Shown one piece after another: positions 17,997-42,436 of a DNA stretch of 64,000 nucleotides. The DNA lies in assembly GCA_964571965.1 (NCBI GenBank), contig CAZNFQ010000002.1:2363-66362 (forward strand). Direction: 5' to 3'. The notes beneath the pieces are model-generated. The model did not search any database. It saw only the letters and a list, made by a program, of their open reading frames with translations, and was not told the origin of the DNA. This DNA comes from an uncultured bacterium (GTDB taxonomy: Bacteria; Fermentibacterota; Fermentibacteria; Fermentibacterales; JCC-6). Position 1 is the stretch's first letter, and each line of letters opens with the position of its first letter. Position numbers and translations under genes: made by a program.

Positions 17997-18082
17997 GACA
18001 CTCTCCGAACGGATGAAAAAACCCCAAAATACTCAGTCGAATAATGCTAAACAAACTCAGAGCAGCCAAGTGACAATGCAGA

Positions 18083-18115
18083 ACTTGACATGAGAGCCTG
18101 ATTTAGCTAACTTTC
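18083..18115 (+). promoter_or_regulatory. putative sigma70-type promoter for rpmH operon
   Basis: TTGACA -35 hexamer about 100 nt upstream of the rpmH ATG, with a weak -10-like TAACTT after a 17-nt spacer. Confidence 0.2.
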
Positions 18116-18185
18116 CGCTTCCGGAAGGAACAGATGAGAACGGTGCGGGAAATAATAATTCCTGCACCCAATGCAGGAGACTATA

Positions 18186-18320
18186 ATGAAAAGAACATAC
18201 CAGCCCAGCGGTATCTCGAAGAAGAGAAGGCACGGATTCAGGGCAAGGATGGCAACCAGAGGCGGAAGAAAAGTTCTGAATGCCAGAAGAAGAAAAGGGC
18301 GCAAGCGCCTGGTGCCATAG
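18186..18320 (+). CDS. rpmH: 50S ribosomal protein L34
   Basis: Translates [44 protein letters not shown] (44 aa), the L34 signature. AGGAG RBS 8 nt upstream. Below the 60-aa ORF-track cutoff. Confidence 0.9.
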
Positions 18321-18321
18321 T

Positions 18322-18660
18322 TTGAATAGGCGTTGTCTGAAGAGGGTCAGGAAGAGCTGGCACTTCAGGAAAATACTGAAACAGGGAAGATACTTCAGGG
18401 GCAGCGTCATTAGAGCAAGATACATAAGGAATTCCCTGGGCAGGATACGCCTGGGGTTTTCTGTATCGGCAAAAACAGGGAATGCGGCGCAGAGAAATCT
18501 CTTCAAGAGAAGACTGAGGCAGTATTCGGTGGAAACAGATACTGAAGCGGGATATGATGCAGTGATATTTCCACTGGGTTCTCTGGAGTTTGCCGACTGG
18601 AAAAGAATGCTTTTGGACATGGACAGACTTACTGCGGAAGCAGCGGAACCGGGGGAATGA
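18322..18660 (+). CDS. rnpA: ribonuclease P protein component (start uncertain; the in-frame ATG at 18280 would overlap rpmH)
   Basis: Basic protein, ...[20 protein letters not shown]...[24 protein letters not shown]..., typical RnpA; follows rpmH. Confidence 0.75.
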
Positions 18661-18889
18661 GATCGGAAGGCTTTTCGTTTTCCTCATAAGGATTTACAGA
18701 GCTGTAATATCGCCGCTGTTACCGCCGAGCTGCATCTACACTCCCACATGCAGCGAATACGCCATGCAGGCAATAACGAAACATGGAGCTTACAAGGGAA
18801 CCGTTCTTGCGGTGAAAAGAATACTCAGGTGTCATCCCTGGCACGAAGGGGGATACGACCCTGTTCCGGAGGTAGAGAATAATGAGTGA
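18590..18889 (+). CDS. yidD: membrane protein insertion efficiency factor YidD (N-terminal extent uncertain)
   Basis: Conserved [60 protein letters not shown] core; overlaps the rnpA 3' end. Confidence 0.7.
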
Positions 18890-20465: not shown

Positions 20466-20471
20466 CCCGAA

Positions 20472-21668
20472 ATGGAAAAACAGGACGATCTTATAGCCGC
20501 ACGGGCAACACCGGAATCGGTTTCAGCAATAGCAGTGGTGAGGCTCTCCGGAAGGGGAGCCTCAGCAACTGTCGAGCAGATCATGGAACTGGAGCCGGGC
20601 AGACTTAAAGGAATGCGCAGAAAAGTGGGCAATTTCGCAGGAATTGATAGTCTGGTGGCCCTGTCATGGCCTGCGGGGAAAAGTTACACAGGAGAGGAAA
20701 TGGTTGACCTGATGTGCCACGGCACACCGGGAACGGCCGAATCCGTACTGAGAAAACTTCTGGATTCCGGGGCAAGACCTGCGGAACCGGGTGAATTTAC
20801 TAGAAGGGCCTGGTTGAATGAACGGCTTTCATCAATGGATGTTCTGGAGCTTTCAGCAAGGTTCAGGAATATTTCAGCCGGCCACACCGGCAAGCTTCAC
20901 GACAAACTGTGCGAGCTCATTACAGAGATAGAAGCCCTTATTGAGTTCGGCGAGGAACATGAAACCGCTGATGAACACAGAATGATGTTTCTTCTGGGAG
21001 AAGCGCGGTCAGCGGCAGAAGAGCTGATGCTTGCGGCGGAACGAATTGAAATTATGCCTGCAGTTTACATAATGGGACCTGTAAATTCCGGAAAATCAAC
21101 ACTTTTCAACCTTATCTGCGGAAAAACGGCAGCCGTTGTCTCTTCCACTCCGGGAACAACAAGGGACGGAGCTGAGAGAACAATAAGTATTCTGGGAAAA
21201 ACGGTGAACCTGGCAGACACAGCCGGAACAGGCGGGGACCATCTGGATGAGGAAGCTCTGGAAATAGCAAGGGCGCGTTTGCGTAAGGGGGACAGGGTCA
21301 TCTGGATGGACAGAGAGCAGAATGAACCGCCTGATGGTCTCGAAGAACAGCACACAGTTCTTAAGGCAGCCTCTCACAGAGACAGGGAAAGTGCACCCCT
21401 GAAGAAAGGCTTTATACCTCTGTCGTCGTTCAGCGGAGAAGGTGTGGATATCGTTAAGGAATTCATGACCGCACCTGAAGGCGGAAGTCCATCCTGGATT
21501 TACAGAAGGGCAGGGGATCTCATCGCCGAAGCGGAAGAGGCCTGCAGATCCTTCGATATAGCCCTGGCAGCTGAAATAGTATCGGTGATACTTGAAGAGA
21601 TCAATGCCGGTATGCAAAGAGGGGAAGCTGTGGAGAGGGCACTGGAAGTGTTCTGCGTCGGTAAATGA
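20472..21668 (+). CDS. mnmE: tRNA modification GTPase MnmE (short form, 398 aa)
   Basis: Central G-domain (GPVNSGKSTLFN, DTAG) and the C-terminal C-x-G-K motif (FCVGK); N-terminal domain shorter than usual. Confidence 0.8.
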   Translation: MEKQDDLIAARATPESVSAIAVVRLSGRGASATVEQIMELEPGRLKGMRRKVGNFAGIDSLVALSWPAGKSYTGEEMVDLMCHGTPGTAESVLRKLLDSGARPAEPGEFTRRAWLNERLSSMDVLELSARFRNISAGHTGKLHDKLCELITEIEALIEFGEEHETADEHRMMFLLGEARSAAEELMLAAERIEIMPAVYIMGPVNSGKSTLFNLICGKTAAVVSSTPGTTRDGAERTISILGKTVNLADTAGTGGDHLDEEALEIARARLRKGDRVIWMDREQNEPPDGLEEQHTVLKAASHRDRESAPLKKGFIPLSSFSGEGVDIVKEFMTAPEGGSPSWIYRRAGDLIAEAEEACRSFDIALAAEIVSVILEEINAGMQRGEAVERALEVFCVGK

Positions 21669-23476
21669 AACCAAGGATAGTAGTTATTGGCGGAGGACAT
21701 GCAGGAGTGGAGGCTGCGGTGGCGGCGGCTTCCAGGGGAGCAGAGACCGTTCTCATCACACCGGATCCCGGGAAAATTGCCCTTATGTCATGCAACCCTT
21801 CAATAGGCGGAATTGCAAAGGGAACACTTGTAAAAGAAACAGATGGCCTTGGCGGCGTCATAGCTCTATCCACGGACAGGGCCGCAATTCAGTTCAGAAT
21901 GCTGAACATGAAGAAAGGTCAGGCGGTTTGGGGTCCCCGGGTCCAGGCAGATCTCGGGATCTACTGCCTTCAGCAGAGAAGAAGACTTGAAGAGGCCGGA
22001 GTTATCATACATACCGGAGTGGTCAGCAGTCTGGTCGGGCCCAGTGAAAAGATACAGGGAGTGCTTCTACAGAGTGGAGAAACGGTCAGAGCAGACGGCT
22101 TAGTAATCGCAACCGGCACTTTTCTTCGCGGTATTCTTCACAGAGGCAGCAAAAGCTGGCCCGGGGGCAGAAGGGGAGACATATCGGCGAACCGGCTGGA
22201 AAAAGATCTCAGGGAAAGAATGTTCCACGTGAAACGATTCAAAACAGGAACATCTCCCAGAGTACTTAGAAAGTCTGTGGATACATCGGTTCTTGAGGAG
22301 CAGAGCACCCATGAAATGGGATTCAGATTCAGCATGCTCTCGGAAGAACCGGTTAAAAACAGGGAAAAATGCTGGGTTACACGAACCACCGGAGAGACCG
22401 AGGAGATAGTAAGGCAAAGCCTGAGGCATTCTCCGCTTTACTCCGGAAGAATAACCGGAAAAGGCCCGAGATACTGTCCAAGCTTCGAAGACAAGGTAAC
22501 GAAGTTCCCAGACAGAACAGGACACCCCATTCATCTGGAACCCATGGGAATAGGATCAAGAATAATGTACCTCAACGGACTCTCAACAAGCCTTCCGGAA
22601 GAGATACAGGAAAGAACGGTAAGATCCATTCGAGGTTTCGAAAATGCCGTGATAGCGGCTTATGGATACTCTGTTGAATACACCTGCTTTGAAACTGGAC
22701 AGTTTACCGAAACACTGAGGGTAAGGGGTACCGGGAATCTGTATGCCGCAGGACAGATACTGGGTACGTCCGGTTATGAAGAAGCCGCTGCAGCGGGTTT
22801 GCTGGCAGGGGCAAATGCCGCAGCAAGCGCCATGGGACTGGCAGAGCAGGTTCCCCACAGACTTAACAGCTACCTCGGAGTAATGGTGGATGATCTGGTT
22901 CACCAGGGAGCAGAGGAACCATACAGACTGTTTTCCAGCAGATCAGAGAACAGGCTCTACCTGAGACAGGACAATGCACACAGAAGAATGTATTCACTTG
23001 GCCAATCTCTGGGGACCCTAACCGCTGAAGCCCTTTCCATTCAGAAAAGGAAAGATGAAGACTACTGGAGGTTCAGGGAACTGATGCGAAAAACAAGGAT
23101 CCAGGGGAATACCGTGGAAGATTTGTGCAAAAGACCGGAGATTGATGCGGAATGGGTTTCCCGGAAGCTGCTGCCCGGCGAATCATTGGATATGGACGTG
23201 TTGCGTTCGGCCATTCTGGACATGAAATATTCAGGTTACATAAAGAGGTCCGAGAGAAAGCACCGTTCCAGGGAGAGATACGCCAGCGTTTCTCTGGATG
23301 GGATAAAGGATTTTTCACAGATCAACTCTTTGAGCATTGAAGCGGCACAGTCAATGAACGCTAAAAGACCCTCCAACATCGGGGAGGCAGAGAGAATACC
23401 CGGCGTCAGGCAGGCTGACATAGAGGCCATAGTGCTTTCCCTCATGAAGGGGGATGTTTCACGTGAAACATCATGA
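21665..23476 (+). CDS. mnmG: tRNA uridine 5-carboxymethylaminomethyl modification enzyme MnmG (GidA)
   Basis: 603 aa; FAD-binding VIGGGHAGVEAA, conserved MSCNPSIGG motif. Confidence 0.95.
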   Translation: MKPRIVVIGGGHAGVEAAVAAASRGAETVLITPDPGKIALMSCNPSIGGIAKGTLVKETDGLGGVIALSTDRAAIQFRMLNMKKGQAVWGPRVQADLGIYCLQQRRRLEEAGVIIHTGVVSSLVGPSEKIQGVLLQSGETVRADGLVIATGTFLRGILHRGSKSWPGGRRGDISANRLEKDLRERMFHVKRFKTGTSPRVLRKSVDTSVLEEQSTHEMGFRFSMLSEEPVKNREKCWVTRTTGETEEIVRQSLRHSPLYSGRITGKGPRYCPSFEDKVTKFPDRTGHPIHLEPMGIGSRIMYLNGLSTSLPEEIQERTVRSIRGFENAVIAAYGYSVEYTCFETGQFTETLRVRGTGNLYAAGQILGTSGYEEAAAAGLLAGANAAASAMGLAEQVPHRLNSYLGVMVDDLVHQGAEEPYRLFSSRSENRLYLRQDNAHRRMYSLGQSLGTLTAEALSIQKRKDEDYWRFRELMRKTRIQGNTVEDLCKRPEIDAEWVSRKLLPGESLDMDVLRSAILDMKYSGYIKRSERKHRSRERYASVSLDGIKDFSQINSLSIEAAQSMNAKRPSNIGEAERIPGVRQADIEAIVLSLMKGDVSRETS

Positions 23477-24083
23477 TCTTCCCGGCAGGGAACAGGTTAA
23501 TGAAGCATGCCGCAGCCTGGGTGTGGTGCCCCCGGACGATTTCCATGGAAAGCTGTCTATCTACCTTGACCTTCTAAGAGATTGTTCGGTCAGGATGAAT
23601 CTTGTGGGACCCCGGGAGAGAGAACGACTGTGGGGCAGACACGCTCTCGAATCCGTCTCCTATGGTGCCCATCTTCAAAATGAACACGTTGTGGACGTGG
23701 GAACCGGAGCCGGCTTTCCAGGATTCATTCTGGCGCTGCTGGGGTATTCCGTTACAATGGTGGAGCCAAGGGAAAAGCGGTGCGGTTTCCTTGAAACAGC
23801 CGCAAGAGAGTGCGGTGCAGTGGCGGAAGTTCTGTGCAGCAGGGTGGAGGAATCCGGGCCATTTCCACAGGGCACGCAGTTTACATCGAGAGCAGTAAAG
23901 AAACCCGAAGAGATGCTGTCTCTTCTAAGAGGGTCAGCGTCGGGGGATTTTACTCTTCTTATCAGAGTGTCTCAGAGGGAAATGAACCTGCAGGGGAACC
24001 ATAGATTTTTCAGATTGCCCGTTCCTCCGCTTGACCGTGAGGGATTTTTGCTGCAGTATTCGCATTCCTGTTTACAAGATTAA
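23454..24083 (+). CDS. rsmG: 16S rRNA (guanine527-N7)-methyltransferase RsmG (GidB)
   Basis: 209 aa; SAM motif VVDVGTGAGFPG; follows mnmG. Confidence 0.85.
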   Translation: MFHVKHHDLPGREQVNEACRSLGVVPPDDFHGKLSIYLDLLRDCSVRMNLVGPRERERLWGRHALESVSYGAHLQNEHVVDVGTGAGFPGFILALLGYSVTMVEPREKRCGFLETAARECGAVAEVLCSRVEESGPFPQGTQFTSRAVKKPEEMLSLLRGSASGDFTLLIRVSQREMNLQGNHRFFRLPVPPLDREGFLLQYSHSCLQD

Positions 24084-24089
24084 AGAAAG

Positions 24090-24857
24090 GTGCTCCGAAT
24101 GACCAGAATCCTTGCTGTGGCCAATCAGAAGGGCGGAGTTGGCAAAACCACCACCGTGATCAATCTCAGCGCAAGCATTGCCGTACACGATAAAGACGTG
24201 CTGATAATAGATATGGATCCCCAGGCAAACGCCACCAGTGGAATAGGCTGCAAAGAGGCAAATGAGAATGGAGTACACGATTTTCTTGCCGGAAAATCTT
24301 CCTTCGAAGACTGCGTTTGGAAAACCGAACTTGAAGGGCTGCATATAATAAGAGGATCCCGGCACCTTGCGGGAACTGAAATAGAGCTTGCCTCTGAAGA
24401 GGGCAGAGAGCATTTCCTATCACAGGCATTGAGATCTGCGGATTTAAGCAGGTACGACTATGTTCTTGTGGATTGTCCTCCTTCACTGGGACTTTTGACG
24501 GTGAATGCCCTTGTTGCGGCCCACGGAGTACTAATTACCGTTCAAAGCGAGTACTACGCCCTTGAAGGACTGTCCCACCTTATGGATACCATAAAGAGGA
24601 TACGAGGGCACTGGAACAGGGAGTTATCCGTGTTCGGGGTAATACTCACCATGTACGACAAGAGACTTAAACTGAGCCGCGAGGTGGAAGAAGAGGCTGA
24701 TTCTCATTTGGGAAAGCTTCTTTTCAAAACCAGAATTCCAAGGAATGTACGCCTCAGTGAAGCGCCAAGTTTCGGAATGCCGGTGATCCTTTACGATGCA
24801 TATTCTTCCGGCGCAAAAAGCTACATGAGCCTGGCCAGAGAGGTGATGTCAAAATGA
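24090..24857 (+). CDS. parA: chromosome partitioning ATPase ParA/Soj
   Basis: Deviant Walker A KGGVGKTTT; 255 aa. Confidence 0.9.
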   Translation: MLRMTRILAVANQKGGVGKTTTVINLSASIAVHDKDVLIIDMDPQANATSGIGCKEANENGVHDFLAGKSSFEDCVWKTELEGLHIIRGSRHLAGTEIELASEEGREHFLSQALRSADLSRYDYVLVDCPPSLGLLTVNALVAAHGVLITVQSEYYALEGLSHLMDTIKRIRGHWNRELSVFGVILTMYDKRLKLSREVEEEADSHLGKLLFKTRIPRNVRLSEAPSFGMPVILYDAYSSGAKSYMSLAREVMSK

Positions 24858-25702
24858 AGAGAAAGAAAGCCCTTGGCAGAGGCCTGGAAGCCCTGCTGCC
24901 GGAAATCGACGAACAGTCTTCTGGAACAGGCACCCCTGCAATGATCGAGGCTGTACTTATAGACCCCAACCCCTTCCAGCCGAGAATAGATTGGGACGAC
25001 ACGGAACTGGAATCCCTGGCAGAGTCCATTAGACAGCAGGGAGTGCTTCAGCCGCTTGTTCTAAGGGCAGCTGGAGAAAGATTTCAGCTCATCGCCGGAG
25101 AAAGACGGCTGAGGGCGTCGAAAATGGCGGGTCTTGATCTTGTTCCAGCTATTATCAGAGAAGCCGATGACAGACAGATGATGGCACTTGCTCTCATAGA
25201 GAATATTCAGAGGCAGGACCTCAACCCCATGGAGAAGGCAGAAGCATTCACAAGATTCTGCAGAGAGTTCGATTTGACCCAGGATGAACTTGGCAGGCAG
25301 GTGGGGCTGAGCCGTTCGGCTGTGGCGAATTTCCAGAGACTGGTGGAGCTTCCGGACCCGGTGAAGAATATGGTGCGTTCCGGTTCTCTCTCCATGGGTC
25401 ACGGAAGGGCCCTTCTGGGACTGGGCAGCAAAGATTCAATCGTTAGAATGGCAAAACTTTCAGTGGCAAGGGGTTACAGTGTAAGAGCCCTGGAGGACGC
25501 AGTAAGGAAGCAGCTTGCCGGCTCCCCGGTGAAGAAATCAAGGAAGGTTCTTCCAGAAATAACCCAGCTTGAAAACGAACTTCAAAGATATCTTGGAACA
25601 AAGGTGGTATTGAAGGATTCCGGAGGCAGGGGAAAGCTGGAGATAGATTATCAGTCGCTGGACGAGCTGGACAGGATTCTTAATATAATAAGGGGTCGGT
25701 GA
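24854..25702 (+). CDS. parB: chromosome partitioning protein ParB/Spo0J
   Basis: ParB-box GERRLRA, helix-turn-helix, C-terminal dimerisation region; overlaps parA by 4 nt. Confidence 0.9.
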   Translation: MKRKKALGRGLEALLPEIDEQSSGTGTPAMIEAVLIDPNPFQPRIDWDDTELESLAESIRQQGVLQPLVLRAAGERFQLIAGERRLRASKMAGLDLVPAIIREADDRQMMALALIENIQRQDLNPMEKAEAFTRFCREFDLTQDELGRQVGLSRSAVANFQRLVELPDPVKNMVRSGSLSMGHGRALLGLGSKDSIVRMAKLSVARGYSVRALEDAVRKQLAGSPVKKSRKVLPEITQLENELQRYLGTKVVLKDSGGRGKLEIDYQSLDELDRILNIIRGR

Positions 25703-33888: not shown

Positions 33889-34476
33889 GTGGAAATGTTA
33901 TCAGTTTTCTTATCAGCGGTTCTTCTTTCCTATGCACCGGGAACCATAGTACTCAGCGAAATAATGTACAATCCGGACGGGCAGACCCTAGGTCTGGACG
34001 AGCATATGGAATGGTTCGAGTTATACAATGCGTCGGATGAGGGGCTGAACCTGGCCGGTATGATGATCTCCGACGGCAACAACCAGATATATCTGGGCCA
34101 CTATCTGCTGGCTCCCGGTGCATACGGAGTGGTTTGCGCCAATGACGCCTCCTTCAAATCCGTATATGGAAACGACGTCAGGCTGATCCCCTGGAGCGGA
34201 GAATGGACCAGACTTAGAAACTCAAGCGATGAACTGATCCTCTACGGAGAAGAGGGTACGGTTATGGAATCCGTTACCTACTACGACAGCTGGGGAGTCA
34301 ATGGAAGCGAACCGTCGCCGGCAGACGGCGACGGATCCTCTCTGGAGAGGATAGACTTCTCAGGACCCAACGACGAAACCAACTGGGCTCCCTCCAGGGA
34401 CTTCAACCACAATGATGACAACGGAGATCCGGTGTGCTGGGGAACCCCGGGAGCTGAAAACTCGGTGGCGGACTAG
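33889..34476 (+). CDS. secreted lamin-tail-domain (LTD) protein
   Basis: Signal-peptide-like N-terminus; LSEIMYNPDG...EWFELYN...LAPGAYGVVCAND... is the LTD signature. Stop TAG overlaps the convergent DUF4956 stop at a CTAG palindrome. Confidence 0.7.
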   Translation: MEMLSVFLSAVLLSYAPGTIVLSEIMYNPDGQTLGLDEHMEWFELYNASDEGLNLAGMMISDGNNQIYLGHYLLAPGAYGVVCANDASFKSVYGNDVRLIPWSGEWTRLRNSSDELILYGEEGTVMESVTYYDSWGVNGSEPSPADGDGSSLERIDFSGPNDETNWAPSRDFNHNDDNGDPVCWGTPGAENSVAD

Positions 34477-35165
34477 AACTCGCTGTCCTCCATGGAACTC
34501 ACAAGGCTTACCCTGTCTATGCCGGCGGTTCTTTCAAGGGTGCTCACAAGGCCGCCGGCGTTCACTCCTCTTTTCAGGGTTATATCGTAGGAGAGAACCA
34601 GGAACTGTCCCTCTCCCGAGGGCTCTATGTGGATAAGGGTTGATCTGGAGGTCTTTTCACTTATCAGTTTCGTATAAATTGCCTCAACTCCGGAATTCCT
34701 GTCGAACCTGAAACGGAGTACGTATTCACTGCGCATGTACGCTCCGAAATTCGTTTTGAACAGTACAAGCGCCACCCCTCCTATGAAAACCGATGAAACA
34801 GCTGTAAGGAGATAGTTGCCCGTTCCCGAGGCAATGCCTTCCGTGAGGGCGAAGAAAACAAAAGCTGTGTCTCTTGTATCTTTTATAACCGTTCTGAAAC
34901 GTACGATGGTAAGGGCGCCGACCAGTGCGAAGGCCCTTGCAAGGTTGCTTCCGATAACCATCATCACTGCACTGACCGTTATACACATGAGAACAAGGGT
35001 GACCACGAAATTCTGGGAGTATGTCAAACCCCTGTGTGTAGCCTTGTATATGATCCCGATCAGAAGTCCTGCGGCAAGAGCCAGAAATAGATTGATTATA
35101 AGTTCCGCAGGAGAGTACCCCAGCATCTCGTTTCCGGTATTCATCCACTGGCTCAGTGATGGCAA
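34473..35165 (-). CDS. DUF4956-domain membrane protein
   Basis: 230 aa; four N-terminal TM helices with the ALVGALTIVRFRT motif and a soluble C-terminal domain; last gene of the CotH/VTC operon. Confidence 0.65.
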   Translation of the reverse strand: MPSLSQWMNTGNEMLGYSPAELIINLFLALAAGLLIGIIYKATHRGLTYSQNFVVTLVLMCITVSAVMMVIGSNLARAFALVGALTIVRFRTVIKDTRDTAFVFFALTEGIASGTGNYLLTAVSSVFIGGVALVLFKTNFGAYMRSEYVLRFRFDRNSGVEAIYTKLISEKTSRSTLIHIEPSGEGQFLVLSYDITLKRGVNAGGLVSTLERTAGIDRVSLVSSMEDSEF

Positions 35166-35944
35166 GCTTTGCTCCTCTCAACGAGTCGGTTGATCCTGCT
35201 GCCTGTATTGCCCAGGTAAACAGCTTCAACGGCTCTCTGGAATTTCGAGCAGGAGACCCTTTCAAGCCCCAGCTCTCTGATTATTCTCTGAAACCAGAAG
35301 GGAATCCGATAACGGAACTTTATTTCAACGATTCCCCCTCTCGGTATTATCTCTTCGGGATTGCCCCGGGGCAAGCCCAGGCGGGAGGCCTGGAAAGCGC
35401 TTGAGGCATCGTCGATGGTTGCCCTGAAATCGGGATTGGAAACATCCTCCCAGGCGGCCCTGTTGTAATCGGTGATCACACTTGGAGAAAGCCTGTATCT
35501 GAACGACTGGGCAATGAACCTTTCAGCAACGTTATTGCCCTGGTAGTCGGATGCCAGAAGATCTCTCAGTCTCCAGGTGCCACCGGTAAGGCCCTCAGAA
35601 AACTCCTGGTGGGGAAGCTTCACCCGGTGCTTGATGACCAGGGCGCCGTCCCTGCCTTTGAGCTCCAGGTAAAGAGGGTCTTCGAACCCCCGGGCAATCT
35701 GGGAATATGCTCTGAGTCTGTACTTGAAACGCTTTTCATGACCGTTTCTCTTTTCGTGGAACCATCTCATGTCCGGAGAGTCAAAGTAGACACTTCGAAT
35801 GGGATAGTACCCGTTGTCCCGGCAGTGAACGTCACGTGACAGGTGCCTGTCCAGTTCCGCGGCCACGATTTTCAGGGAGTTGTCAGAAAGAATGTACTTG
35901 AACTCGTACCTGTAGAAATGCAGGTGTTCGGGCACTGATGTCAT
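35153..35944 (-). CDS. VTC-domain protein (polyphosphate-polymerase-like, CYTH/triphosphate-tunnel fold)
   Basis: 263 aa; RYEFKYILSDNSLKIVAAEL...YYPIRSVYFDSPDMRWFHEKRNGHEKRFKYRLRAY...LYLELKGRDGALVIKHRVKL matches the bacterial VTC (Vtc4-like catalytic tunnel) domain; overlaps DUF4956 by 13 nt. Confidence 0.75.
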   Translation of the reverse strand: MTSVPEHLHFYRYEFKYILSDNSLKIVAAELDRHLSRDVHCRDNGYYPIRSVYFDSPDMRWFHEKRNGHEKRFKYRLRAYSQIARGFEDPLYLELKGRDGALVIKHRVKLPHQEFSEGLTGGTWRLRDLLASDYQGNNVAERFIAQSFRYRLSPSVITDYNRAAWEDVSNPDFRATIDDASSAFQASRLGLPRGNPEEIIPRGGIVEIKFRYRIPFWFQRIIRELGLERVSCSKFQRAVEAVYLGNTGSRINRLVERSKACHH

Positions 35945-37005
35945 CAGAACCTGAATCCTGCTTCCAGCACTATATCGGTATAATCCTCCGAGGAATTGAA
36001 TTCTTCCACGGTGTTCTTGACACCTCCAAAGCGTATTCTTGTGTTCTCGGTGGGATAAACAGCTCCCATTATGGAAATTCTTCTGTCCATCCAGTCCAGA
36101 TCGGTATCCGGCTTCGCTTCGTCAAATCCCAGGGAGATTGAAACAGTTCTTATTGTCTGAACGTTCCATGGGTGGTAATTGAAGGTTACCGCACCCCAGT
36201 AGCCCAGGAACCGGGGAGGATCTTCACCGGCGAGCACTTCACTCAGCTCCCAGTTGTCTCCTGTGGACAGCTCTGCGTAAATCTCGGCGCCGTACCAGTT
36301 ATTGAATTCATGTTCAAAGGAAAGATCGCCGGAAAAGGCAAAAAGCCTGGCGCTTGAGATATAGCCGTCCGGTTCGGTCTGGTCGGCCATGCCCTTTCTG
36401 TGGGAAACCGCCGAAAGCCCAAGGGTAAGGTCAGCAGGCAGTATTTCCGCGGTACCCCTGAAGGAGTAAAGCAGTTCACTGTCCTCTCTCTCTTCTGCCC
36501 TGGCATCTCCGTTGAAGACCCCTGCAGTGCCCCGGAGTTCGAGAACGTTAGAGACGGGTAACTGGATACGGGCATCGAATCCCAGGTCTCTGCCGCTGTA
36601 TGTGAGGTCTTCGCGTAGCTCATAAACAAGAGGACGCTCAAAGAGGGGAAGATCCCATGTGCTCAGGTCTCCTCCCAGAAGAGTTGCCCTTCTGAACAAA
36701 CCGAACCGGCCCCTGGCAGATCCCAGAGGTTCCCACTCCACAAGTGCGTCCTTCAGAAAAATTTCATTGGGTCTGAACTCCAGTTTCAGCTCCGCCTGAA
36801 GGTTGCCGGTGATCCGGGCTGCAGTTTCCATCCCTGCCCGGCGTATGGAGAATTCCCTGGAGGGAACGGCATTGTAACCGCCGAACTCCTCGTATCTGGC
36901 ATCGAGATAACCTTCCAGGGTAAACTCCTCGCAGACAGGATTTTCAACATCGATGGCGGCAAATGATATGGCAAAACAAAACAAGACGCACATAGTGAAT
37001 TTCAT
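35944..37005 (-). CDS. outer-membrane beta-barrel protein (porin-like), hypothetical
   Basis: Signal peptide MKFTMCVLFCFAISFAA; alternating amphipathic beta-strands; C-terminal ...LEAGFRF ending in aromatic Phe. 1-nt overlaps with both neighbours. Confidence 0.55.
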   Translation of the reverse strand: MKFTMCVLFCFAISFAAIDVENPVCEEFTLEGYLDARYEEFGGYNAVPSREFSIRRAGMETAARITGNLQAELKLEFRPNEIFLKDALVEWEPLGSARGRFGLFRRATLLGGDLSTWDLPLFERPLVYELREDLTYSGRDLGFDARIQLPVSNVLELRGTAGVFNGDARAEEREDSELLYSFRGTAEILPADLTLGLSAVSHRKGMADQTEPDGYISSARLFAFSGDLSFEHEFNNWYGAEIYAELSTGDNWELSEVLAGEDPPRFLGYWGAVTFNYHPWNVQTIRTVSISLGFDEAKPDTDLDWMDRRISIMGAVYPTENTRIRFGGVKNTVEEFNSSEDYTDIVLEAGFRF

Positions 37006-39455
37006 TACTGATCCTCCTGCAAAACAGTGAGACGAACTGAGTCTGAATCCGTACTTGATCTCAGATAAAGAATATACACACCTGAAGGAAGGGTTCCAGT
37101 GAAGTCAGCGGTAACCGTTCCCGAAGGGGTGGGCGGCAGATCGATCCTGGACATTACCCTGCCGCACATGTCGAACAGAACCGCCTCCACAGGCATTGAA
37201 GACGTTTCGTAGAAAAAGCTGAAAGAACCTGAGCACGGGTTGGGAGAAGCCAGCCTTACACAGGTTGCAGGGAGATTGGAAGGCCATCCCGGATTAGGAG
37301 CACCCGGCGTACCCGGCGGTTCAGCGGATACCCAGCTGAAAGGAGATGAAACCGGCGATTGAGGTGAGCCCAGATACATTATTCCAGTTTCTGCTCCCGG
37401 CCAGGAGCAGTTCCAGCCCATGGAAAAGTTACAGTCTCCGGTATTGCTGAACAGGAAGAGGGAGTCGGATTCAGAAGCCAGACTGAAATCGAGAAAAGCC
37501 GGATCCAACCCTGCAAATTCCCTCTGGGGGTTGTCGCAGACCACCAGATAGCTTCCGGGAAGAAGACAGGTTCCCTCGTCGAAAAGAGAAGTATTCATTC
37601 CGGCATCCATGAGGAACCATCCGGAGAGATCCACCTGATTCTGACCCGGGTTGTAGAGCTCTATCCAGTCGTCTCCGCCTCCGCGGCAGATCTCGCTTGG
37701 AATAACGATCTGATCCGGTTGTGGAAGGGTATCGCCTGTGCCGATGTTCCAGGTGTGCATTTCATGCCAGGAAGGATCGTTCAGTGTAAGCGGAGTACCT
37801 GCGGGATATGGTGTTCCAGCGTCTCCGAATAACCGCTCCCCGCAGAAGGATCCTGCCAGCCGGGCATCGTTCGTAAGGTAGAAGGTTTCACCGGCTTCAA
37901 CGAGAACAGACTCCGGGAAGAATACCGTTCCCGAGGGCATTCCCACGTAAAAAGAGCATAGACTTAAGTCCTGCGTGTGATCTGCGTTGTTGGTTACAGG
38001 GAGTATCCAGAGGTTTTCCCCGCACCAGAGGGGAGTGCCCGGGGAGAACTGCTCCGGAACAAGGGGAGCAAGGGCCATCCTGGCCCCGGGAGCCGGTGAC
38101 GGCCTGGCAAAATTTTCCCTGAGGCACCAGGAAGGATAGGAAACAGGGAAACTACAAGGGGCGATCCGCGGACAGAAGGCCATTCTTACACTGTATGTCC
38201 CAGGGGGAACATCTATGGTGTATTCGTATTCACCCTTTTCCTCTTCTTCCAGGTAGTGCCATTCTTCGTCTTCTCCGTCGAATGACAGCAGAAGAATCAC
38301 TCCCTCTGAGGCAATATCTCCTGTTTCAAGTTCCAACTCCACAGATGTTTCCATGTCGAGGCAGGAAGAAATTTCATAGTCCTCTATTGGCGTGGCGGGA
38401 TAGTCCAGATACACTTCCGAAAGATAGGCTGCCCGGGCTTCGATATCTTCAGAGAGGAATGAGCAGATGGAATCGAACTGTGAGACGGAGTATTCGTAGA
38501 AGGGGTCCTGCGCCAGTTCAGATCTTATTTCGAGCCGCAGCGAGTCGATTATTCCTGGGTATTCGTCTGCCATGATATCGGCACACTCCGCTATCAGGGT
38601 ATTGAGAAGCTGAACGTTGTCCCAGGACGCAAGCAGAGATCTTGCGGCGCCGAAGTAGCCGATGTCGCCGAGGCTGTGTTTCTCAACCCAGTCGGGGATG
38701 TACTCTCCCGTCCACGCATTGCCGAACGTGGCGTCCCGGTCCCAGGGGTAAATGTGCCAGCGGTCCTGCCAGCTGTGGAGGTAGATATTCTTGATTATGC
38801 CGTCTCTGTCGGATATTGCGGTGTTCACCGCGAAGAGGGCTATGAATTCGTCGGTTTCCAGGGAAGAGACATCTCCCCGGAAAGCATCTTCGATCAGTTG
38901 AAGCAGCAGTTGTGAATAGGGCTCACTGTCCACCTTGGGTTCGAATCCGGCAATTCCCAGGGTATCGGAGTACTGACAAATGAGCCTCGCGGCAACGTCG
39001 GTGCTCTTGAACAAGGGGCCGAAGCCTGTTCCGTTCCTCTGGTAGAATCGTCTGTCAATCCGCTCAACCCTCTCATATACTCCCATATTCGTTCCATTTA
39101 TGGAAAGGGACACGAATTCAGTTTCCGGTGCCGGATAACCAAGTTTTCTCGTCAGCAGAAGGCCAAGGGTGTTCCGCATGAGGGAAGGATCGCGGAACTG
39201 GGCATTCAGTAGTATGTGGTCTCCGCAGGGGAAGATCTCGTCTTCCTCAAGTCTTATATGGAAACTCTTTTTCGCAAGCCAAAGGCTGGTGCCGCCTCTG
39301 AATGCAAGGGTTCCTCCTGCAACCAGGGTATCCAGGAAAACCGTTGCCGGAATCTCAAGTTCGTCCTGAAAGTGATCGTAAAGATATGCGAGATCACCGG
39401 GATCCACAGTTACGGAATAGTGCGGCAGCACCGAAAGAATTACCAGAAAAATCAT
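37005..39455 (-). CDS. CotH-kinase-like protein with inserted lamin-tail domain and C-terminal T9SS sorting domain
   Basis: 816 aa. CotH motifs FRGGTSLWLAKKSFHIRL, INGTNMGVYERVERIDRRF, NIYLHSWQDRWHIYPWDRDATFGN. LTD SEICRGGGDDWIELYNPGQNQVDLSGWFL...LPGSYLVVCDN. C-terminal GVYILYLRSSTDSDSVRLTVLQ resembles Por_Secre_tail. Confidence 0.8.
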   Translation of the reverse strand: MIFLVILSVLPHYSVTVDPGDLAYLYDHFQDELEIPATVFLDTLVAGGTLAFRGGTSLWLAKKSFHIRLEEDEIFPCGDHILLNAQFRDPSLMRNTLGLLLTRKLGYPAPETEFVSLSINGTNMGVYERVERIDRRFYQRNGTGFGPLFKSTDVAARLICQYSDTLGIAGFEPKVDSEPYSQLLLQLIEDAFRGDVSSLETDEFIALFAVNTAISDRDGIIKNIYLHSWQDRWHIYPWDRDATFGNAWTGEYIPDWVEKHSLGDIGYFGAARSLLASWDNVQLLNTLIAECADIMADEYPGIIDSLRLEIRSELAQDPFYEYSVSQFDSICSFLSEDIEARAAYLSEVYLDYPATPIEDYEISSCLDMETSVELELETGDIASEGVILLLSFDGEDEEWHYLEEEEKGEYEYTIDVPPGTYSVRMAFCPRIAPCSFPVSYPSWCLRENFARPSPAPGARMALAPLVPEQFSPGTPLWCGENLWILPVTNNADHTQDLSLCSFYVGMPSGTVFFPESVLVEAGETFYLTNDARLAGSFCGERLFGDAGTPYPAGTPLTLNDPSWHEMHTWNIGTGDTLPQPDQIVIPSEICRGGGDDWIELYNPGQNQVDLSGWFLMDAGMNTSLFDEGTCLLPGSYLVVCDNPQREFAGLDPAFLDFSLASESDSLFLFSNTGDCNFSMGWNCSWPGAETGIMYLGSPQSPVSSPFSWVSAEPPGTPGAPNPGWPSNLPATCVRLASPNPCSGSFSFFYETSSMPVEAVLFDMCGRVMSRIDLPPTPSGTVTADFTGTLPSGVYILYLRSSTDSDSVRLTVLQEDQ

Positions 39456-39477
39456 TGCTGAACGCTTTCATGTTCTT

Positions 39478-41934
39478 TCACTGATCATCCCTTAATATGG
39501 TTAAGCAAGCTGAATCCCAACCCGATCCAGACCTCAGAGATACAATATACAACCCCGACGGAAGAGTTCCAGAGAAGTCTGCCGATAGGGTACCCTCACA
39601 GGAAGCCGGCAGGGGCAGCTCAGATATAACTCTTCCGCAGATGTCGTAGAGAATCAGCTGAGCGGTTTCAGATGAGGTTTCGTATGAGAGAGAGAAGGCT
39701 CCTGAGCAGGGGTTCTCTGATACAAGGCGCAAACGGGTGAGCCCTGAAGGCTGAGACCAACCGGGATTGGGAAGGCCGGGAGTACCGGGAGGCTCCGCAG
39801 AGGCCCAGCTGAATGGAGAGGAGACAGGAAAAACAGGAGACTTCAAATACATTATTCCAGACTCATATCCCGGCCAGAACTCAGTCCAGTTCAAAGCAAA
39901 TACCAGTTTTCCCAGGCTGTCATACAGCCAGAGAGAGTCAGTTTCACGATTAAGAGACATCTCAAGTATTTCCGCCTCAATCCCATGACAGTAGCCTTCA
40001 GGATTTTCACAGACAACAAGATATTCTCCTGGTTGGAGAGTAAGACCATCCGAAAGGAATGAAGCGTTTCTTTCAGAATCAATCAGATAGAAGCCTGACA
40101 GCTCAGCAGGGTTATCACCGGCATTGAACAGTTCAATCCAGTCGTGTTCACCAGCTCTGCAAATTTCCGTTGGGATGATGCAGAGATCAGGAAGAGACAG
40201 AGTGTCCGTGTCTGTAATCATCCATGAACTCATTTCATGCCAGGATGGGTCACAGAGGAAAAGGCTGCAGTTTACAGGGCAGGGGGATCCTGCATCTCCG
40301 AATACTCTGCCCGGAAACAGGTTTTCAGCCAGTCCGGAGTTGTTCGTAAGATAAAAAGTTTCCTCAGGAGCCACCACAACTGATTCAGGCAGAAAAACAG
40401 TCCCCGGCACCGGATATGTTCTGAATGAGCAGAGACTCAGGTCCTGTGAGAAATCAGCGGTATTACTTACCGGCAGTACCCAGAGGTTTTCCCCGCACCA
40501 TACCGGGGTACCTGGCAATAGGAATTCGGGCCTGAGGGGAGCAAGGGCTATCCTTGCTCCTGGAGCAGGTACAGGTCTTATCCGGTTTCCCATAAAAGAC
40601 CAGGAAGGGTAGTACACCGGCAGAAAGCAGGGTTTGATCCTGGGTCCGAAAACAACCTGTACACTGTAGGCGCCATGGGGAACATTTAGAGTGTAAGAGT
40701 ATGCTCCACCTGGCTCTTCAGGAAGGAAGCAGGAAAATTCATCGCCTCTGTCAATGGAGAAGAGAAGCATTACTCCGTGGGAATCACCGCCCAGAAGTTC
40801 CAGTTCCATTTGAACCTGATTTCCCATGTTCAGACAGTCACCGATCAGGAAATTTCCAATTCTCGAAGCGGGATCTGCCAGATATACTCCCGGAAGAAAG
40901 GAAGCCCGTGCTTCTATGTCATGGGAGAGAACTGCGCAGATGGAATCAAACTGAACCGGTGAAAATTCATAATAGGGATCATTAGCTATCTCGCTCCTTA
41001 GTTCAATTCTCAAAGAATCAATTATATGGGGGAATTGCAGGGCCATTATTTCTGCAGAGACTTCCATGAGATCGTTGAAAAGAACAATGTTCTCCTGTAG
41101 TTCGAGGAGGGGTCTGCCTGCTCCAAATCGGCCTATATCACCCATGTATACCGATTCTTCCCACCCGGGGATGTACTCGCCGGGAGAATTCCCGAAGGAT
41201 GCATCACGATCCCAGGGGTAGACATGCCAGCGGTTGCAGAAGCGATGAAGAAAGATGTTCTTGACTATGCCGTCGCGGTTGGCTATTGCGGTATTAACGG
41301 CGAAAAGGGCTATGAACTCCTCAGTTTCCAGGGAAGATACGTCTCCGGCAAAGCAATTCTCTATGAGTTCAAGAAGCTCAAGACGGTATGGATCGCTGTC
41401 TCTTTTGGGTTCAAGGCCGTGTATCCCGGATCTATCCGAATATTGGCATACAATTCTGCCAAGGGGTTCTATGCTTTTAAAGATGGGGCCCCACCCAAGA
41501 CCGTTTCGCTGAAAAAACTCTCTGTCTATGCGCTCGATCCTTTCATAAATTCCCATACTGCTGCCATTCAGGGAAAGAGTAACAAACTCGGTGATGGGTG
41601 CGGGGTACCCCAGTTCTCTGGTAAGAAGATGACCAAGGGTGTTTCTCATGAAAGACGGGTCCAGGGACTGGGCATTCAATAGAATATTCCCGGAACAATC
41701 GGGTGGGTTGTTTTCACAAATACGTATGTGCCAGCTTTTTTTCGGAAGATACAGGCTGGCTCCTCCTCTTATGGACAGGGTACCTTCCAATACCAGCGAA
41801 TCCGTTGAGATCAGCGCCGGGATTTCAATATCTTCTTCGAGATTATCATAGAGGTATGCCAGCTGTACTGGATCTGTTGTCAGGGAATAGTGGGGCAGCG
41901 CATGCAGCAGCACCAGAAAGAATATATAATTCAT
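39478..41934 (-). CDS. CotH-kinase-like protein with lamin-tail domain and C-terminal T9SS sorting domain (tandem paralog)
   Basis: 818 aa; same architecture and roughly half identical to the downstream gene (IRGGASLYLPKKSWHIRI; NIFLHRFCNRWHVYPWDRDASFGN; TEICRAGEHDWIELFNAGDNPAELSGFYL; C-terminal GLYIVSLRSGSGWDSACLTILRDDQ). Confidence 0.8.
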   Translation of the reverse strand: MNYIFFLVLLHALPHYSLTTDPVQLAYLYDNLEEDIEIPALISTDSLVLEGTLSIRGGASLYLPKKSWHIRICENNPPDCSGNILLNAQSLDPSFMRNTLGHLLTRELGYPAPITEFVTLSLNGSSMGIYERIERIDREFFQRNGLGWGPIFKSIEPLGRIVCQYSDRSGIHGLEPKRDSDPYRLELLELIENCFAGDVSSLETEEFIALFAVNTAIANRDGIVKNIFLHRFCNRWHVYPWDRDASFGNSPGEYIPGWEESVYMGDIGRFGAGRPLLELQENIVLFNDLMEVSAEIMALQFPHIIDSLRIELRSEIANDPYYEFSPVQFDSICAVLSHDIEARASFLPGVYLADPASRIGNFLIGDCLNMGNQVQMELELLGGDSHGVMLLFSIDRGDEFSCFLPEEPGGAYSYTLNVPHGAYSVQVVFGPRIKPCFLPVYYPSWSFMGNRIRPVPAPGARIALAPLRPEFLLPGTPVWCGENLWVLPVSNTADFSQDLSLCSFRTYPVPGTVFLPESVVVAPEETFYLTNNSGLAENLFPGRVFGDAGSPCPVNCSLFLCDPSWHEMSSWMITDTDTLSLPDLCIIPTEICRAGEHDWIELFNAGDNPAELSGFYLIDSERNASFLSDGLTLQPGEYLVVCENPEGYCHGIEAEILEMSLNRETDSLWLYDSLGKLVFALNWTEFWPGYESGIMYLKSPVFPVSSPFSWASAEPPGTPGLPNPGWSQPSGLTRLRLVSENPCSGAFSLSYETSSETAQLILYDICGRVISELPLPASCEGTLSADFSGTLPSGLYIVSLRSGSGWDSACLTILRDDQ

Positions 41935-42410: not shown

Positions 42411-42436
42411 AAAAAGGGGCGGCAACAGCCGCCCCT
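42408..42436 (-). terminator. rho-independent terminator for the rhamnose-isomerase-like gene
   Basis: GGGGCGGC-aaca-GCCGCCCC hairpin preceded on the plus strand by an A8 run, which is a U-run after the hairpin on the minus-strand transcript. Confidence 0.5.

What the first reader, a model, noticed from the sequence alone, without database searches (positions are those of the whole stretch)
34473..35944. VTC-domain + DUF4956 gene pair: candidate bacterial polyphosphate polymerase/translocase module
A 263-aa soluble VTC/CYTH-like protein is translationally coupled (13-nt overlap) to a DUF4956 protein with four TM helices and a cytoplasmic domain. In yeast the VTC catalytic domain is tethered to a TM channel that threads nascent polyP across the membrane. 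A split bacterial version would be a Ppk-independent polyP synthase; Ppk1/Ppk2 homologues are not visible in this window.
Basis: inference. Interest (0 to 1): 0.72.

Follow-up and report, generated by a model that had tools for sequence, protein, structure and literature searches.

The report
Bacterial VTC-like polyphosphate synthase gene pair
A cytoplasmic enzyme that keeps every catalytic residue of the yeast polyphosphate polymerase Vtc4 is always encoded next to an MgtC-like membrane protein, here inside an operon with a phosphate-porin-like outer-membrane protein and two CotH kinases; this makes a good but biochemically untested candidate for a third, PPK-independent bacterial route to polyphosphate.

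Summary
On the minus strand, 35153-35944 encodes a 263-aa VTC-domain protein (Pfam E 4.6e-33). Positions 34473-35165 encode a 230-aa DUF4956 membrane protein, and the two genes overlap by 13 nt.

The VTC protein keeps all nine residues shown to be essential in yeast Vtc4, including the K458 equivalent that inactive Vtc2/3 lack. Its predicted fold matches Vtc4 far better than other tunnel enzymes.

In 83 of 83 testable loci from at least nine phyla, a DUF4956 gene sits beside the VTC gene on the same strand.

DUF4956 is not related to the yeast VTC channel subunits. It is a distant MgtC/YhiD-like protein with about five membrane helices and a cytoplasmic ACT domain. Channel function is therefore inferred only.

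Here the pair ends a five-gene operon: two CotH-LTD proteins, an OprP/OprO-like porin candidate, VTC and DUF4956. Elsewhere its partners are exported CotH or beta-helix proteins.

The gene set was already noted beside Gram-positive pel operons, and RefSeq names the enzyme a polyphosphate polymerase domain protein. No paper found in the searched library reports an assay of its activity.

This is a worthwhile, directly testable lead rather than a new discovery.

The parts
35153..35944 (-). VTC-domain protein, 263 aa. Cytoplasmic Vtc4-like triphosphate-tunnel enzyme and candidate polyphosphate polymerase.
   Evidence: Pfam VTC E 4.6e-33. A profile of homologues hits the Vtc4 catalytic domain in PDB at E 1.7e-15. 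AF2 model: pLDDT 86.7, pTM 0.85. Foldseek top hits are Vtc4 at E 1e-15 and TM about 0.7, against 4e-8 or worse for other TTMs. K16, R76, R78, K96, Y160, R162, E207, S233 and K234 correspond to Vtc4 K200, R264, R266, K281, Y359, R361, E426, S457 and K458. All nine are invariant in 61 sequences. No signal peptide: beta-strand 1 starts at residue 10.
34473..35165 (-). DUF4956 protein, 230 aa. Inner-membrane protein with about five helices, an invariant RFR...D loop and a C-terminal cytoplasmic ACT-like domain. Distant MgtC/YhiD relative and obligate partner of VTC.
35172..35176 (-). Shine-Dalgarno-like AGGAG inside the end of the VTC gene, 6 nt upstream of the DUF4956 TTG start.
   Evidence: Read directly from the sequence.
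35944..37005 (-). 353-aa outer-membrane beta-barrel candidate, weakly similar to phosphate/polyphosphate-selective porins OprP/OprO. Translationally coupled to VTC.
   Evidence: Signal peptide MKFTMCVLFCFAISFAA and C-terminal ...GFRF. Pfam Porin_O_P sub-threshold in 14 of 22 homologues, best E 5.8e-6. The best PDB profile hits are OprP 2o4v (E 0.027) and OprO 4rjw (E 0.052). Present upstream of VTC in the Fermentibacterota loci and detected in no locus from any other phylum. TGATG stop/start overlap.
37005..39455 (-). CotH kinase-like protein with a lamin-tail domain and a weak T9SS C-terminal sorting signal (816 aa).
   Evidence: Pfam CotH E 5.3e-34 and LTD E 8.3e-13. TIGR04183 at 21 bits, below its cutoff of 23. 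B. cereus CotH 5jd9 at E 8e-23 over the whole kinase domain.
39478..41934 (-). Second CotH-LTD protein (818 aa), first gene of the operon.
   Evidence: Pfam CotH E 3.9e-27, LTD E 4.3e-12, Por_Secre_tail at 21 bits (below cutoff).
42415..42436 (-). Strong intrinsic-terminator-like hairpin ending the upstream gene. Marks the 5' boundary of the five-gene transcription unit.
   Evidence: 9-bp stem with 8 G-C pairs, followed by T7.
33889..34476 (+). Convergent 195-aa LTD-only protein with a hydrophobic N-terminus. Possible accessory; its stop overlaps the DUF4956 stop by 4 nt.
   Evidence: Pfam LTD E 2.6e-14. The same arrangement is present on the public contig L005.

Best explanation
The pair most likely encodes a two-component, membrane-associated polyphosphate synthase.

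1. The 263-aa VTC protein sits in the cytoplasm. Like the Vtc4 catalytic domain, it is proposed to bind ATP-Mn2+ in its beta-tunnel, transfer the gamma-phosphate onto a growing polyP chain, and release the chain along a basic path (R12, K105/R107, R174, K209).
2. The protein is proposed to dock on DUF4956. This is an inner-membrane protein of the MgtC/YhiD superfamily. Its invariant RFRTVxKDTxD loop (R89, R91, D99) and its ACT domain are predicted to face the cytoplasm.
3. DUF4956 anchors the enzyme. Its ACT domain probably gates the enzyme in response to a small ligand, a role analogous to the SPX domain in yeast.
4. As an oligomer, DUF4956 most likely hands the polyanion outward across the inner membrane, which the inside-negative membrane potential would favour.
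5. In this Fermentibacterota operon, an OprP/OprO-like porin would then let the polymer cross the outer membrane to the surface. There the CotH-LTD proteins (elsewhere CotH-beta-helix or Cthe_2159 beta-helix proteins) would bind it or use it.

Shown here: domain identities, conservation of the catalytic residues, obligate gene pairing, operon structure, and the exported nature of the partner proteins.

Inferred: polymerase rather than hydrolase chemistry, physical docking of the two proteins, translocation through DUF4956, and what CotH does with the product.
For: Catalytic domain:
- Pfam VTC at 115 bits.
- The profile hits Vtc4 at E 1.7e-15.
- The model matches Vtc4 structures at E 1e-15 and TM about 0.7. 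This is seven orders of magnitude better than CYTH hydrolases or cyclases.
- All nine residues whose mutation lowers polyP in yeast are identical and invariant in 61 homologues spanning 25-87% identity.
- The K458 equivalent is kept. Inactive Vtc2/3 have I/L at that position.
- Two of the acidic-patch positions that define TTM hydrolases are basic, as in Vtc4: R12 and K209 correspond to AtTTM3 E2 and E171 (PMC4641920; mapping).

Coupling of the two genes:
- 13-nt overlap with an internal Shine-Dalgarno-like motif.
- DUF4956 lies on the same strand and adjacent in 83 of 83 testable loci. These come from Fermentibacterota, Gammaproteobacteria, Planctomycetota, Acidobacteriota, Desulfobacterota-type lineages, Clostridia, Bacilli and three CPR lineages.
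- Three of three distant DUF4956 genes have VTC immediately upstream.
- In the listed best hits (120 per family, plus 150 DUF4956 representatives) both families are single-domain and size-constrained.

Outward destination:
- Recurrent neighbours are exported or membrane-anchored: CotH, CotH-beta-helix and Cthe_2159 lipoproteins.
- The gene translationally coupled upstream is an outer-membrane protein whose only database similarity is to phosphate/polyphosphate porins.

Topology: hydropathy and the positive-inside rule place the invariant basic loop and the ACT domain in the cytoplasm.

Genetics in Streptococcus intermedius: deleting the DUF4956 or the CotH homologue alters a cell-surface phenotype, namely Pel level and aggregation (PMC12345266).
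Against: - No paper found in the searched library reports a polyP measurement for any bacterial VTC protein.
- An invariant glutamate (E14) occupies the position of the second Glu of the CYTH ExExK motif, where Vtc4 has Thr. TTM enzymes with very similar tunnels can be pure hydrolases; AtTTM3 is an example (PMC4641920).
- DUF4956 shows no similarity to the Vtc1/Vtc4 TM channel or to any solved channel.
- Its nearest relatives (MgtC) are characterised as regulators of other membrane proteins, not as pores.
- The DUF4956 model has only moderate confidence (pLDDT 75).
- A complex prediction could not be run.
- The porin similarity is sub-threshold, and OprP/OprO are uptake porins.
- The CotH secretion signals in this window are weak.
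- The S. intermedius VTC-gene deletion had no reported phenotype.
Confidence: 0.45

Rival explanations
1. The pair makes polyphosphate, but the polymer stays in the cytoplasm or at the membrane. DUF4956 is only an anchor and ACT-domain sensor, as MgtC is a regulator, and is not a conduit. The link to exported proteins would then be regulatory or reflect co-expression in envelope or biofilm programmes.
For: DUF4956 is related to MgtC/YhiD and carries an ACT domain. Characterised family members regulate other proteins rather than transport (PMC12345266 discussion). No channel-like structural match was found.
Against: A simple anchor would not need about 50 contiguous near-invariant membrane residues with buried charges. 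The consistent linkage to exported CotH or beta-helix proteins, and here to a phosphate-porin-like outer-membrane protein, is left unexplained.
Confidence: 0.2
2. The VTC-like protein is not a polymerase. It is a TTM hydrolase or other triphosphate-processing enzyme (tripolyphosphatase, NTPase or exopolyphosphatase). It is tethered to the membrane by DUF4956, for example to process imported polyP/PPPi or to control local ATP.
For: The characterised prokaryotic TTM/CYTH enzymes seen here, such as E. coli ygiF, are hydrolases or cyclases. An invariant E14 retains half of the ExExK metal-site motif that Vtc4 lacks. AtTTM3 shares the Vtc4 tunnel-centre residues yet only hydrolyses PPPi (PMC4641920). 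OprP/OprO-type porins serve uptake.
Against: Sequence and fold are much closer to Vtc4 than to any hydrolase. The K458 equivalent, critical for polymerase activity but dispensable for AtTTM3 hydrolysis, is invariant. Two acidic-patch positions are basic, as in Vtc4.
Confidence: 0.15
3. The module supplies a phosphoryl donor or primer for modifying an extracellular polymer or protein. Examples are phosphorylation of Pel-like polysaccharide or surface proteins by CotH. polyP would then be a transient intermediate rather than the end product.
For: The set cotH + VTC + DUF4956 sits beside Gram-positive pel operons (bioRxiv 768473) and affects Pel level and aggregation. CotH domains here align fully with an active kinase. 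Extracellular kinases lack ATP.
Against: No evidence was found that CotH uses polyP. Most Clostridia loci have the pair without CotH. No pel genes were seen in this window.
Confidence: 0.12

Closest known systems
Yeast/protist VTC complex (Vtc4/Vtc3 or Vtc2/Vtc1): ATP-driven polyP polymerase coupled to a membrane channel.
   Same: The catalytic tunnel domain is homologous and carries all nine essential residues, including K458. The enzyme is cytoplasmic and is obligatorily linked to a membrane protein. A regulatory ligand-binding domain is present in the system (ACT here, SPX in yeast).
   Different: The window protein has no SPX domain and no fused TM domain. The membrane partner is a separate polypeptide of a different superfamily (MgtC-like with about five helices, not the DUF202 three-helix type). 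E14 replaces Vtc4 T198. The destination would be the cell exterior rather than a vacuole lumen.
The cotH / 'polyphosphate polymerase' / DUF4956 accessory genes of Gram-positive pel loci (S. intermedius SIR_1594-1592) and C. perfringens NELoc-2.
   Same: The same three protein families occur in the same adjacency. The authors likewise describe DUF4956 as an MgtC-type TM domain plus an ACT domain.
   Different: This locus is in a diderm FCB-group bacterium. It is not next to pel. It has two CotH-LTD paralogues with T9SS-like tails and an added OprP/OprO-like outer-membrane protein. The authors of the 2025 paper state that they did not find the triad outside pel loci.
MgtC/SapB/YhiD family membrane proteins.
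   Same: The TM block is followed by a C-terminal ACT-like domain, and there is weak but consistent sequence and fold similarity.
   Different: The hits are below the Pfam MgtC threshold. DUF4956 has its own invariant RFR...D core. MgtC is not linked to a TTM enzyme and is characterised as a regulator (F1Fo ATPase, PhoR).
Bacterial PPK1/PPK2 polyphosphate kinases.
   Same: The presumed end product (polyP made from a nucleotide triphosphate) is the same.
   Different: The fold and mechanism are unrelated. PPKs are not coupled to a dedicated membrane partner or to exported proteins.
Pseudomonas OprP/OprO phosphate- and polyphosphate-selective porins (for the 353-aa neighbour).
   Same: These are the only database similarity for the 353-aa protein. 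It also has a signal peptide and a C-terminal Phe.
   Different: The scores are sub-threshold and the protein is shorter (353 aa against about 410-430). The direction of transport is unknown.

Membership tests
VTC domain (PF09359) / Vtc4-type TTM catalytic domain | Match to the family HMM above the curated threshold. | tested here: met
   115.2 bits against a cutoff of 23, covering model positions 2-235 of 235.
VTC domain (PF09359) / Vtc4-type TTM catalytic domain | Closed beta-tunnel fold closest to Vtc4. | tested here: met
   AF2 pLDDT 86.7 and pTM 0.85. The top 13 Foldseek hits are all Vtc4/Vtc3/Vtc2, at E 1e-15 to 4e-13. The next TTMs score 4e-8. This rests on a predicted structure, not a solved one.
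VTC domain (PF09359) / Vtc4-type TTM catalytic domain | Triphosphate/Mn2+ ligands K200, R264, R266, K281, Y359, R361, E426 and S457. | tested here: met
   The window equivalents are K16, R76, R78, K96, Y160, R162, E207 and S233. All are identical and invariant in 61 sequences. The C-terminal segment of the alignment (E207, S233, K234) comes from a low-scoring HMM stretch, but it is supported by invariant motif spacing.
VTC domain (PF09359) / Vtc4-type TTM catalytic domain | The catalytic Lys (K458) that separates active Vtc4 from inactive Vtc2/Vtc3. | tested here: met
   K234 lies in an invariant S-K motif.
VTC domain (PF09359) / Vtc4-type TTM catalytic domain | Absence of the TTM hydrolase acidic patch (AtTTM3 E2, E4, E90, E171). 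| tested here: inconclusive
   R12 and K209 are basic, as in Vtc4. E14 is acidic, as in hydrolases. The E90 equivalent was mapped only by inference to K105/R107.
VTC domain (PF09359) / Vtc4-type TTM catalytic domain | Synthesis of polyP from ATP. | not testable with these tools
   This needs an enzyme assay. No published assay for a bacterial member was found.
Eukaryotic VTC complex (polymerase-translocase) | N-terminal SPX regulatory domain. | tested here: not met
   The protein is a single domain of 263 aa, and Pfam finds only VTC.
Eukaryotic VTC complex (polymerase-translocase) | Vtc1-type (DUF202) three-helix TM domains forming the channel. | tested here: not met
Eukaryotic VTC complex (polymerase-translocase) | Catalytic domain physically coupled to a membrane pore that takes the nascent chain. 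| not testable with these tools
   Only gene-level coupling is shown (83 of 83 adjacency).
DUF4956 (PF16316) | Match to the family HMM above the curated threshold. | tested here: met
   48.8 bits against a cutoff of 30.6. The family has 6963 representatives at E up to 1e-3; the 150 listed are fragments or stand-alone proteins of at most 249 aa, none fused.
MgtC/SapB/YhiD family (PF02308) | Match to the MgtC HMM above the curated threshold. | tested here: not met
   The best score in the per-member tables is 20.7 bits against a cutoff of 31.4; the best E-value across members is 7.2e-5. The hit recurs in 17 of 20 homologues and spans MgtC positions 1-118 of 121. This indicates superfamily-level relatedness only.
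MgtC/SapB/YhiD family (PF02308) | C-terminal ACT-like soluble domain after the TM block. | tested here: met
OprP/OprO phosphate-selective porins (PF07396), for the 353-aa neighbour | Match to the family HMM or to solved porins. | tested here: inconclusive
   Sub-threshold hits in 14 of 22 homologues, best E 5.8e-6. OprP and OprO are the top PDB profile hits, but only at E 0.027 and 0.052. No structure prediction was run for this protein.
CotH atypical kinases (PF08757), for the two upstream genes | Match to the family HMM and to a solved CotH kinase domain. | tested here: met
   118.6 and 96 bits. B. cereus CotH 5jd9 at E 8e-23 over residues 8-347. Catalytic competence was judged only by eye from conserved motifs.

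The most novel reading that the evidence does not exclude
The VTC-DUF4956 pair is the core of a widespread, PPK-independent bacterial machine. It polymerises phosphate at the inner face of the membrane and extrudes polyP to the cell exterior. In Fermentibacterota the polymer would pass through a dedicated OprO/P-like outer-membrane porin. Outside, it would serve as a matrix polyanion and/or as the phosphoryl donor for surface CotH kinases and as the ligand of the associated beta-helix proteins. This would give a genetic basis for extracellular bacterial polyP.
Probability: 0.3. Interest if true: 0.85.

Novelty: new variant of a known kind. Interest (0 to 1): 0.55.

Why it matters
- Characterised bacterial polyP synthesis is attributed to PPK1 and PPK2. 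A Vtc4-type polymerase working with a non-homologous membrane partner would be a third route.
- It could be the first bacterial route that is intrinsically coupled to export.
- Extracellular polyP and non-PPK synthesis are now being reported in bacteria without a responsible gene. A 2026 B. cereus preprint (PMC13484657) is one example.
- The same three gene families influence Pel-dependent aggregation in a pathogenic streptococcus and lie in a C. perfringens pathogenicity locus.
- Both families are large. DUF4956 has about 7000 clusters at 50% identity, and there are at least 5000 stand-alone VTC proteins. A single biochemical result would therefore annotate thousands of genes.
- It would also suggest what MgtC-like proteins can do.

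Tried and rejected
- Single-sequence PDB searches with either protein found nothing useful. Profiles were needed.
- NCBIfam gave no family for VTC, DUF4956 or the 353-aa protein.
- PADLOC gave no hit, so a defence-system reading was dropped.
- The AFDB Foldseek library was unavailable. The TM domain could therefore only be compared with solved structures, where ACT hits dominate.
- A Pfam scan of 116 neighbour proteins exceeded the size limit and was repeated on immediate neighbours only.
- Literature searches for DUF4956 together with VTC, and for CotH together with polyphosphate, found no functional study.
- A search for polyP genes in Fermentibacteria papers found nothing relevant.
- Natural VTC-DUF4956 fusions (a Rosetta-stone test) were looked for in the top 120 to 150 hits of three searches. 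None was seen.
- The 353-aa porin-like protein has no detectable relative in loci outside Fermentibacterota.
- The idea that the pair is specific to pel loci was rejected. No pel genes were seen among the window ORFs scanned, and most loci examined have other contexts.
Full report
**1. Observation**

On the minus strand, 35153-35944 encodes a 263-aa protein and 34473-35165 a 230-aa protein. The first matches Pfam VTC (PF09359) at E 4.6e-33 over the whole model. The second matches DUF4956 (PF16316) at E 8.8e-13. Both are above the curated cutoffs.

The DUF4956 TTG start lies 13 nt inside the VTC gene, and an AGGAG motif sits 6 nt upstream of it. The N-terminal MxxLxxWF pattern is conserved in homologues, which supports that start. 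One public gene call uses the ATG at M8 instead.

First, AlphaFold predicts five helical segments in residues 19-138, three strongly hydrophobic and two weaker, rather than four TM helices. Second, the pair is the distal end of a larger operon.

**2. Operon and organism**

Close homologues are named Candidatus Sabulitectum or Fermentibacteria. The window is origin-proximal chromosome carrying gyrBA, yidC, mnmG and parAB.

A strong terminator-like hairpin at 42436-42415 closes the upstream gene. Five co-directional genes follow:
- two CotH + lamin-tail-domain proteins with sub-threshold T9SS sorting tails, at 39478-41934 and 37005-39455;
- a 353-aa protein at 35944-37005;
- VTC;
- DUF4956.

The 353-aa gene's stop overlaps the VTC start (TGATG). 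That protein has a signal peptide and ends in Phe. Its only database similarity is weak but consistent: Pfam Porin_O_P in 14 of 22 homologues (best E 5.8e-6), and OprP and OprO as the best PDB profile hits (E 0.027 and 0.052).

**3. The VTC protein is Vtc4-like down to the active site**

- A 14-sequence profile hits the yeast Vtc4 catalytic domain at E 1.7e-15.
- The AF2 model (pLDDT 86.7, pTM 0.85) matches Vtc4 structures at E 1e-15 and TM about 0.7. Other triphosphate tunnel enzymes score 4e-8 or worse.
- The cryo-EM study of VTC lists K200, R264, R266, K281, Y359, R361, S457 and K458, plus Mn-binding E426, as required for polyP synthesis. It identifies K458 as the one residue that inactive Vtc2/Vtc3 lack (bioRxiv 10.1101/2023.01.27.525886).
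- The profile alignment maps these to K16, R76, R78, K96, Y160, R162, S233, K234 and E207. Every one is invariant in 61 homologues at 25-87% identity.
- Martinez et al. showed that TTM hydrolases carry an acidic patch where Vtc4 has basic residues that lead the chain away (PMC4641920). Here R12 and K209 are basic, as in Vtc4.
- One position, E14, is an invariant glutamate as in hydrolases. Vtc4 has T198 there.

**4. DUF4956 is not the yeast channel**

Pfam scans of 20 members find no DUF202/Vtc1 signal. They do find sub-threshold MgtC hits in 17 of 20 members, spanning the whole MgtC model. hhalign against E. coli YhiD gives 72.7% probability over the last helix plus the C-terminal domain.

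The family core, VMMxIGxNxARAFxLVGALxIxRFRTxVKDxxDxAFxF, is extraordinarily conserved. R89, R91, D99 and G114 are invariant or nearly so at 26-42% identity. Hydropathy and the positive-inside rule fit an N-out, C-in topology. That puts the basic loop and the ACT domain in the cytoplasm, where the VTC enzyme is.

This is compatible with a docking or hand-off site. Pore function, however, is inference only.

**5. Co-occurrence**

A scan of one genome per species found 519 relatives, of which 78 loci were kept. They come from Fermentibacterota, Gammaproteobacteria, Planctomycetota, Acidobacteriota, a deltaproteobacterial lineage, Clostridia, Bacilli and three CPR lineages.

HMM searches of six-frame ORFs found a DUF4956 gene adjacent on the same strand in 83 of 85 loci. 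The two exceptions end at the VTC gene. The order is VTC then DUF4956 in all but one locus.

In the reverse test, three distant DUF4956 genes all have VTC immediately upstream. No fusion protein appeared among the best hits listed (120 for each family, plus 150 DUF4956 representatives), and lengths are tightly constrained. DUF4956 has 6963 clusters at 50% identity; stand-alone VTC proteins number at least 4991.

**6. Other partners**

- Outside Fermentibacterota, the commonest immediate neighbours are Cthe_2159 beta-helix proteins (16 of 62), generic beta-helix/NosD proteins, and CotH.
- In Thermodesulfobacteriota-type loci the upstream gene is a CotH-beta-helix fusion.
- These partners carry lipoprotein signals, signal peptides or N-terminal membrane anchors. 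They therefore act outside the cytoplasmic membrane.
- CotH was found in 46 of 88 loci. Most Clostridia have Cthe_2159 instead.
- The porin-like gene is confined to Fermentibacterota.

**7. Literature**

- No paper in the library links DUF4956 with VTC functionally.
- Lepp et al. listed VTC-domain genes, adjacent membrane proteins and CotH in C. perfringens NELoc-2 (PMC2879425).
- Whitfield et al. described cotH, a poly-phosphate polymerase gene, DUF4956 and DUF4832 as accessory genes of Gram-positive pel operons (bioRxiv 768473).
- A 2025 study of S. intermedius described SIR_1592 as an MgtC TM domain plus an ACT domain, SIR_1593 as a polyP polymerase domain protein, and SIR_1594 as a secreted CotH. 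Deleting 1592 or 1594 changed Pel levels and halved aggregation. Deleting 1593 gave no reported phenotype, and polyP was not measured (PMC12345266).
- That paper states that the triad was not found outside pel loci. The loci here contradict this.
- A 2026 preprint reports non-PPK polyP synthesis and extracellular polyP in B. cereus, with no responsible gene identified (PMC13484657).

**8. Interpretation**

The best reading is a two-component, membrane-associated polyP synthase. The VTC protein is the ATP-dependent polymerase. DUF4956 is its MgtC-like membrane partner, which anchors it, probably regulates it through the ACT domain, and plausibly passes the polyanion outward. In this lineage an OprP/O-like outer-membrane protein and surface CotH-LTD proteins lie downstream in the pathway.

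Rough confidence in each step:
- Vtc4-type tunnel enzyme: about 0.9.
- Functional partnership with DUF4956: about 0.85.
- polyP polymerase chemistry: about 0.55.
- Export through DUF4956: about 0.3.

Rivals are retention of polyP in the cytoplasm with DUF4956 as a regulator only, hydrolase chemistry, and polyP as an intermediate for CotH-mediated modification of a surface polymer. 'PPK-independent' cannot be assessed from a 64-kb window. No PPK domain was seen in the 20 additional ORFs scanned.

**9. Novelty and score**

No biochemical test of it was found in the searched library.

New here:
- conservation of the catalytic residues, including the K458 discriminator;
- essentially obligate pairing across at least nine phyla;
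- the finding that the membrane partner is analogous, not homologous, to the yeast channel;
- a diderm operon variant with a phosphate-porin-like gene.

Interest is 0.55. This is a solid, directly testable lead on a live question, not a surprise to specialists.

Noticed in passing
window 10575-25702: Origin-proximal gene set: gyrA and gyrB on the minus strand; yidC, mnmG, parA and parB on the plus strand. The GC-skew sign changes near 14-16 kb. The 451-aa ORF at 16641-17996(-) between them was not annotated; it could be dnaA.
   Followed up: partly
window 7006-10575 (-): A 1189-aa ORF next to gyrA has no Pfam hit at E 1e-5.
   Followed up: no
window 49609-51891 (-): A C25 (gingipain-like) peptidase has an above-threshold T9SS C-terminal sorting domain. 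The organism therefore appears to use type IX secretion, which makes the weaker CTD hits on the two CotH proteins more plausible.
   Followed up: partly
window 37005-41934 (-): Both CotH paralogues have only about 10 uncharged hydrophobic residues before the kinase core begins; the core aligns from query residue 8 to residue 1 of 5jd9. Their signal peptides are therefore doubtful, whereas homologues in other lineages have clear signal peptides or membrane anchors.
   Followed up: partly
window 33889-34476 (+): A convergent 195-aa protein consists of little more than a lamin-tail domain. Its stop codon overlaps the DUF4956 stop by 4 nt, and the arrangement is conserved on the public contig L005.
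   Followed up: no
L001, L004 and other Clostridia loci (e.g. L066, L068, L069, L071): A conserved block of VTC, DUF4956 and a Cthe_2159 lipoprotein is followed by a divergent histidine kinase/response regulator pair and, in L001 and L004, a NAGPA (phosphodiester glycosidase) gene. This suggests a regulated surface-polymer module.
   Followed up: partly
L087, L088, L047, L048, L051, L053: In Thermodesulfobacteriota, Gammaproteobacteria, Planctomycetota and Acidobacteriota, the gene upstream of VTC is a membrane-anchored protein of about 915-968 aa. In L087 and L088 it is annotated as a CotH + right-handed beta-helix fusion and is preceded by a ~340-370-aa protein with an N-terminal hydrophobic segment (no Pfam family in L087, weak TPR hits in L088).
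   Followed up: partly
window 53634-55481 (+) and 701-4722 (-): A Castor/Pollux-type RCK ion channel and V-type ATPase subunits (I and C/AC39) are present. They are unrelated to the finding.
   Followed up: no
Comparison of homologue lists: DUF4956 evolves much more slowly than its VTC partner. Between Fermentibacterota and Thermodesulfobacteriota it keeps about 48-50% identity, against about 34% for VTC in a deltaproteobacterial locus (L049). This suggests strong constraint on the membrane component.
   Followed up: no
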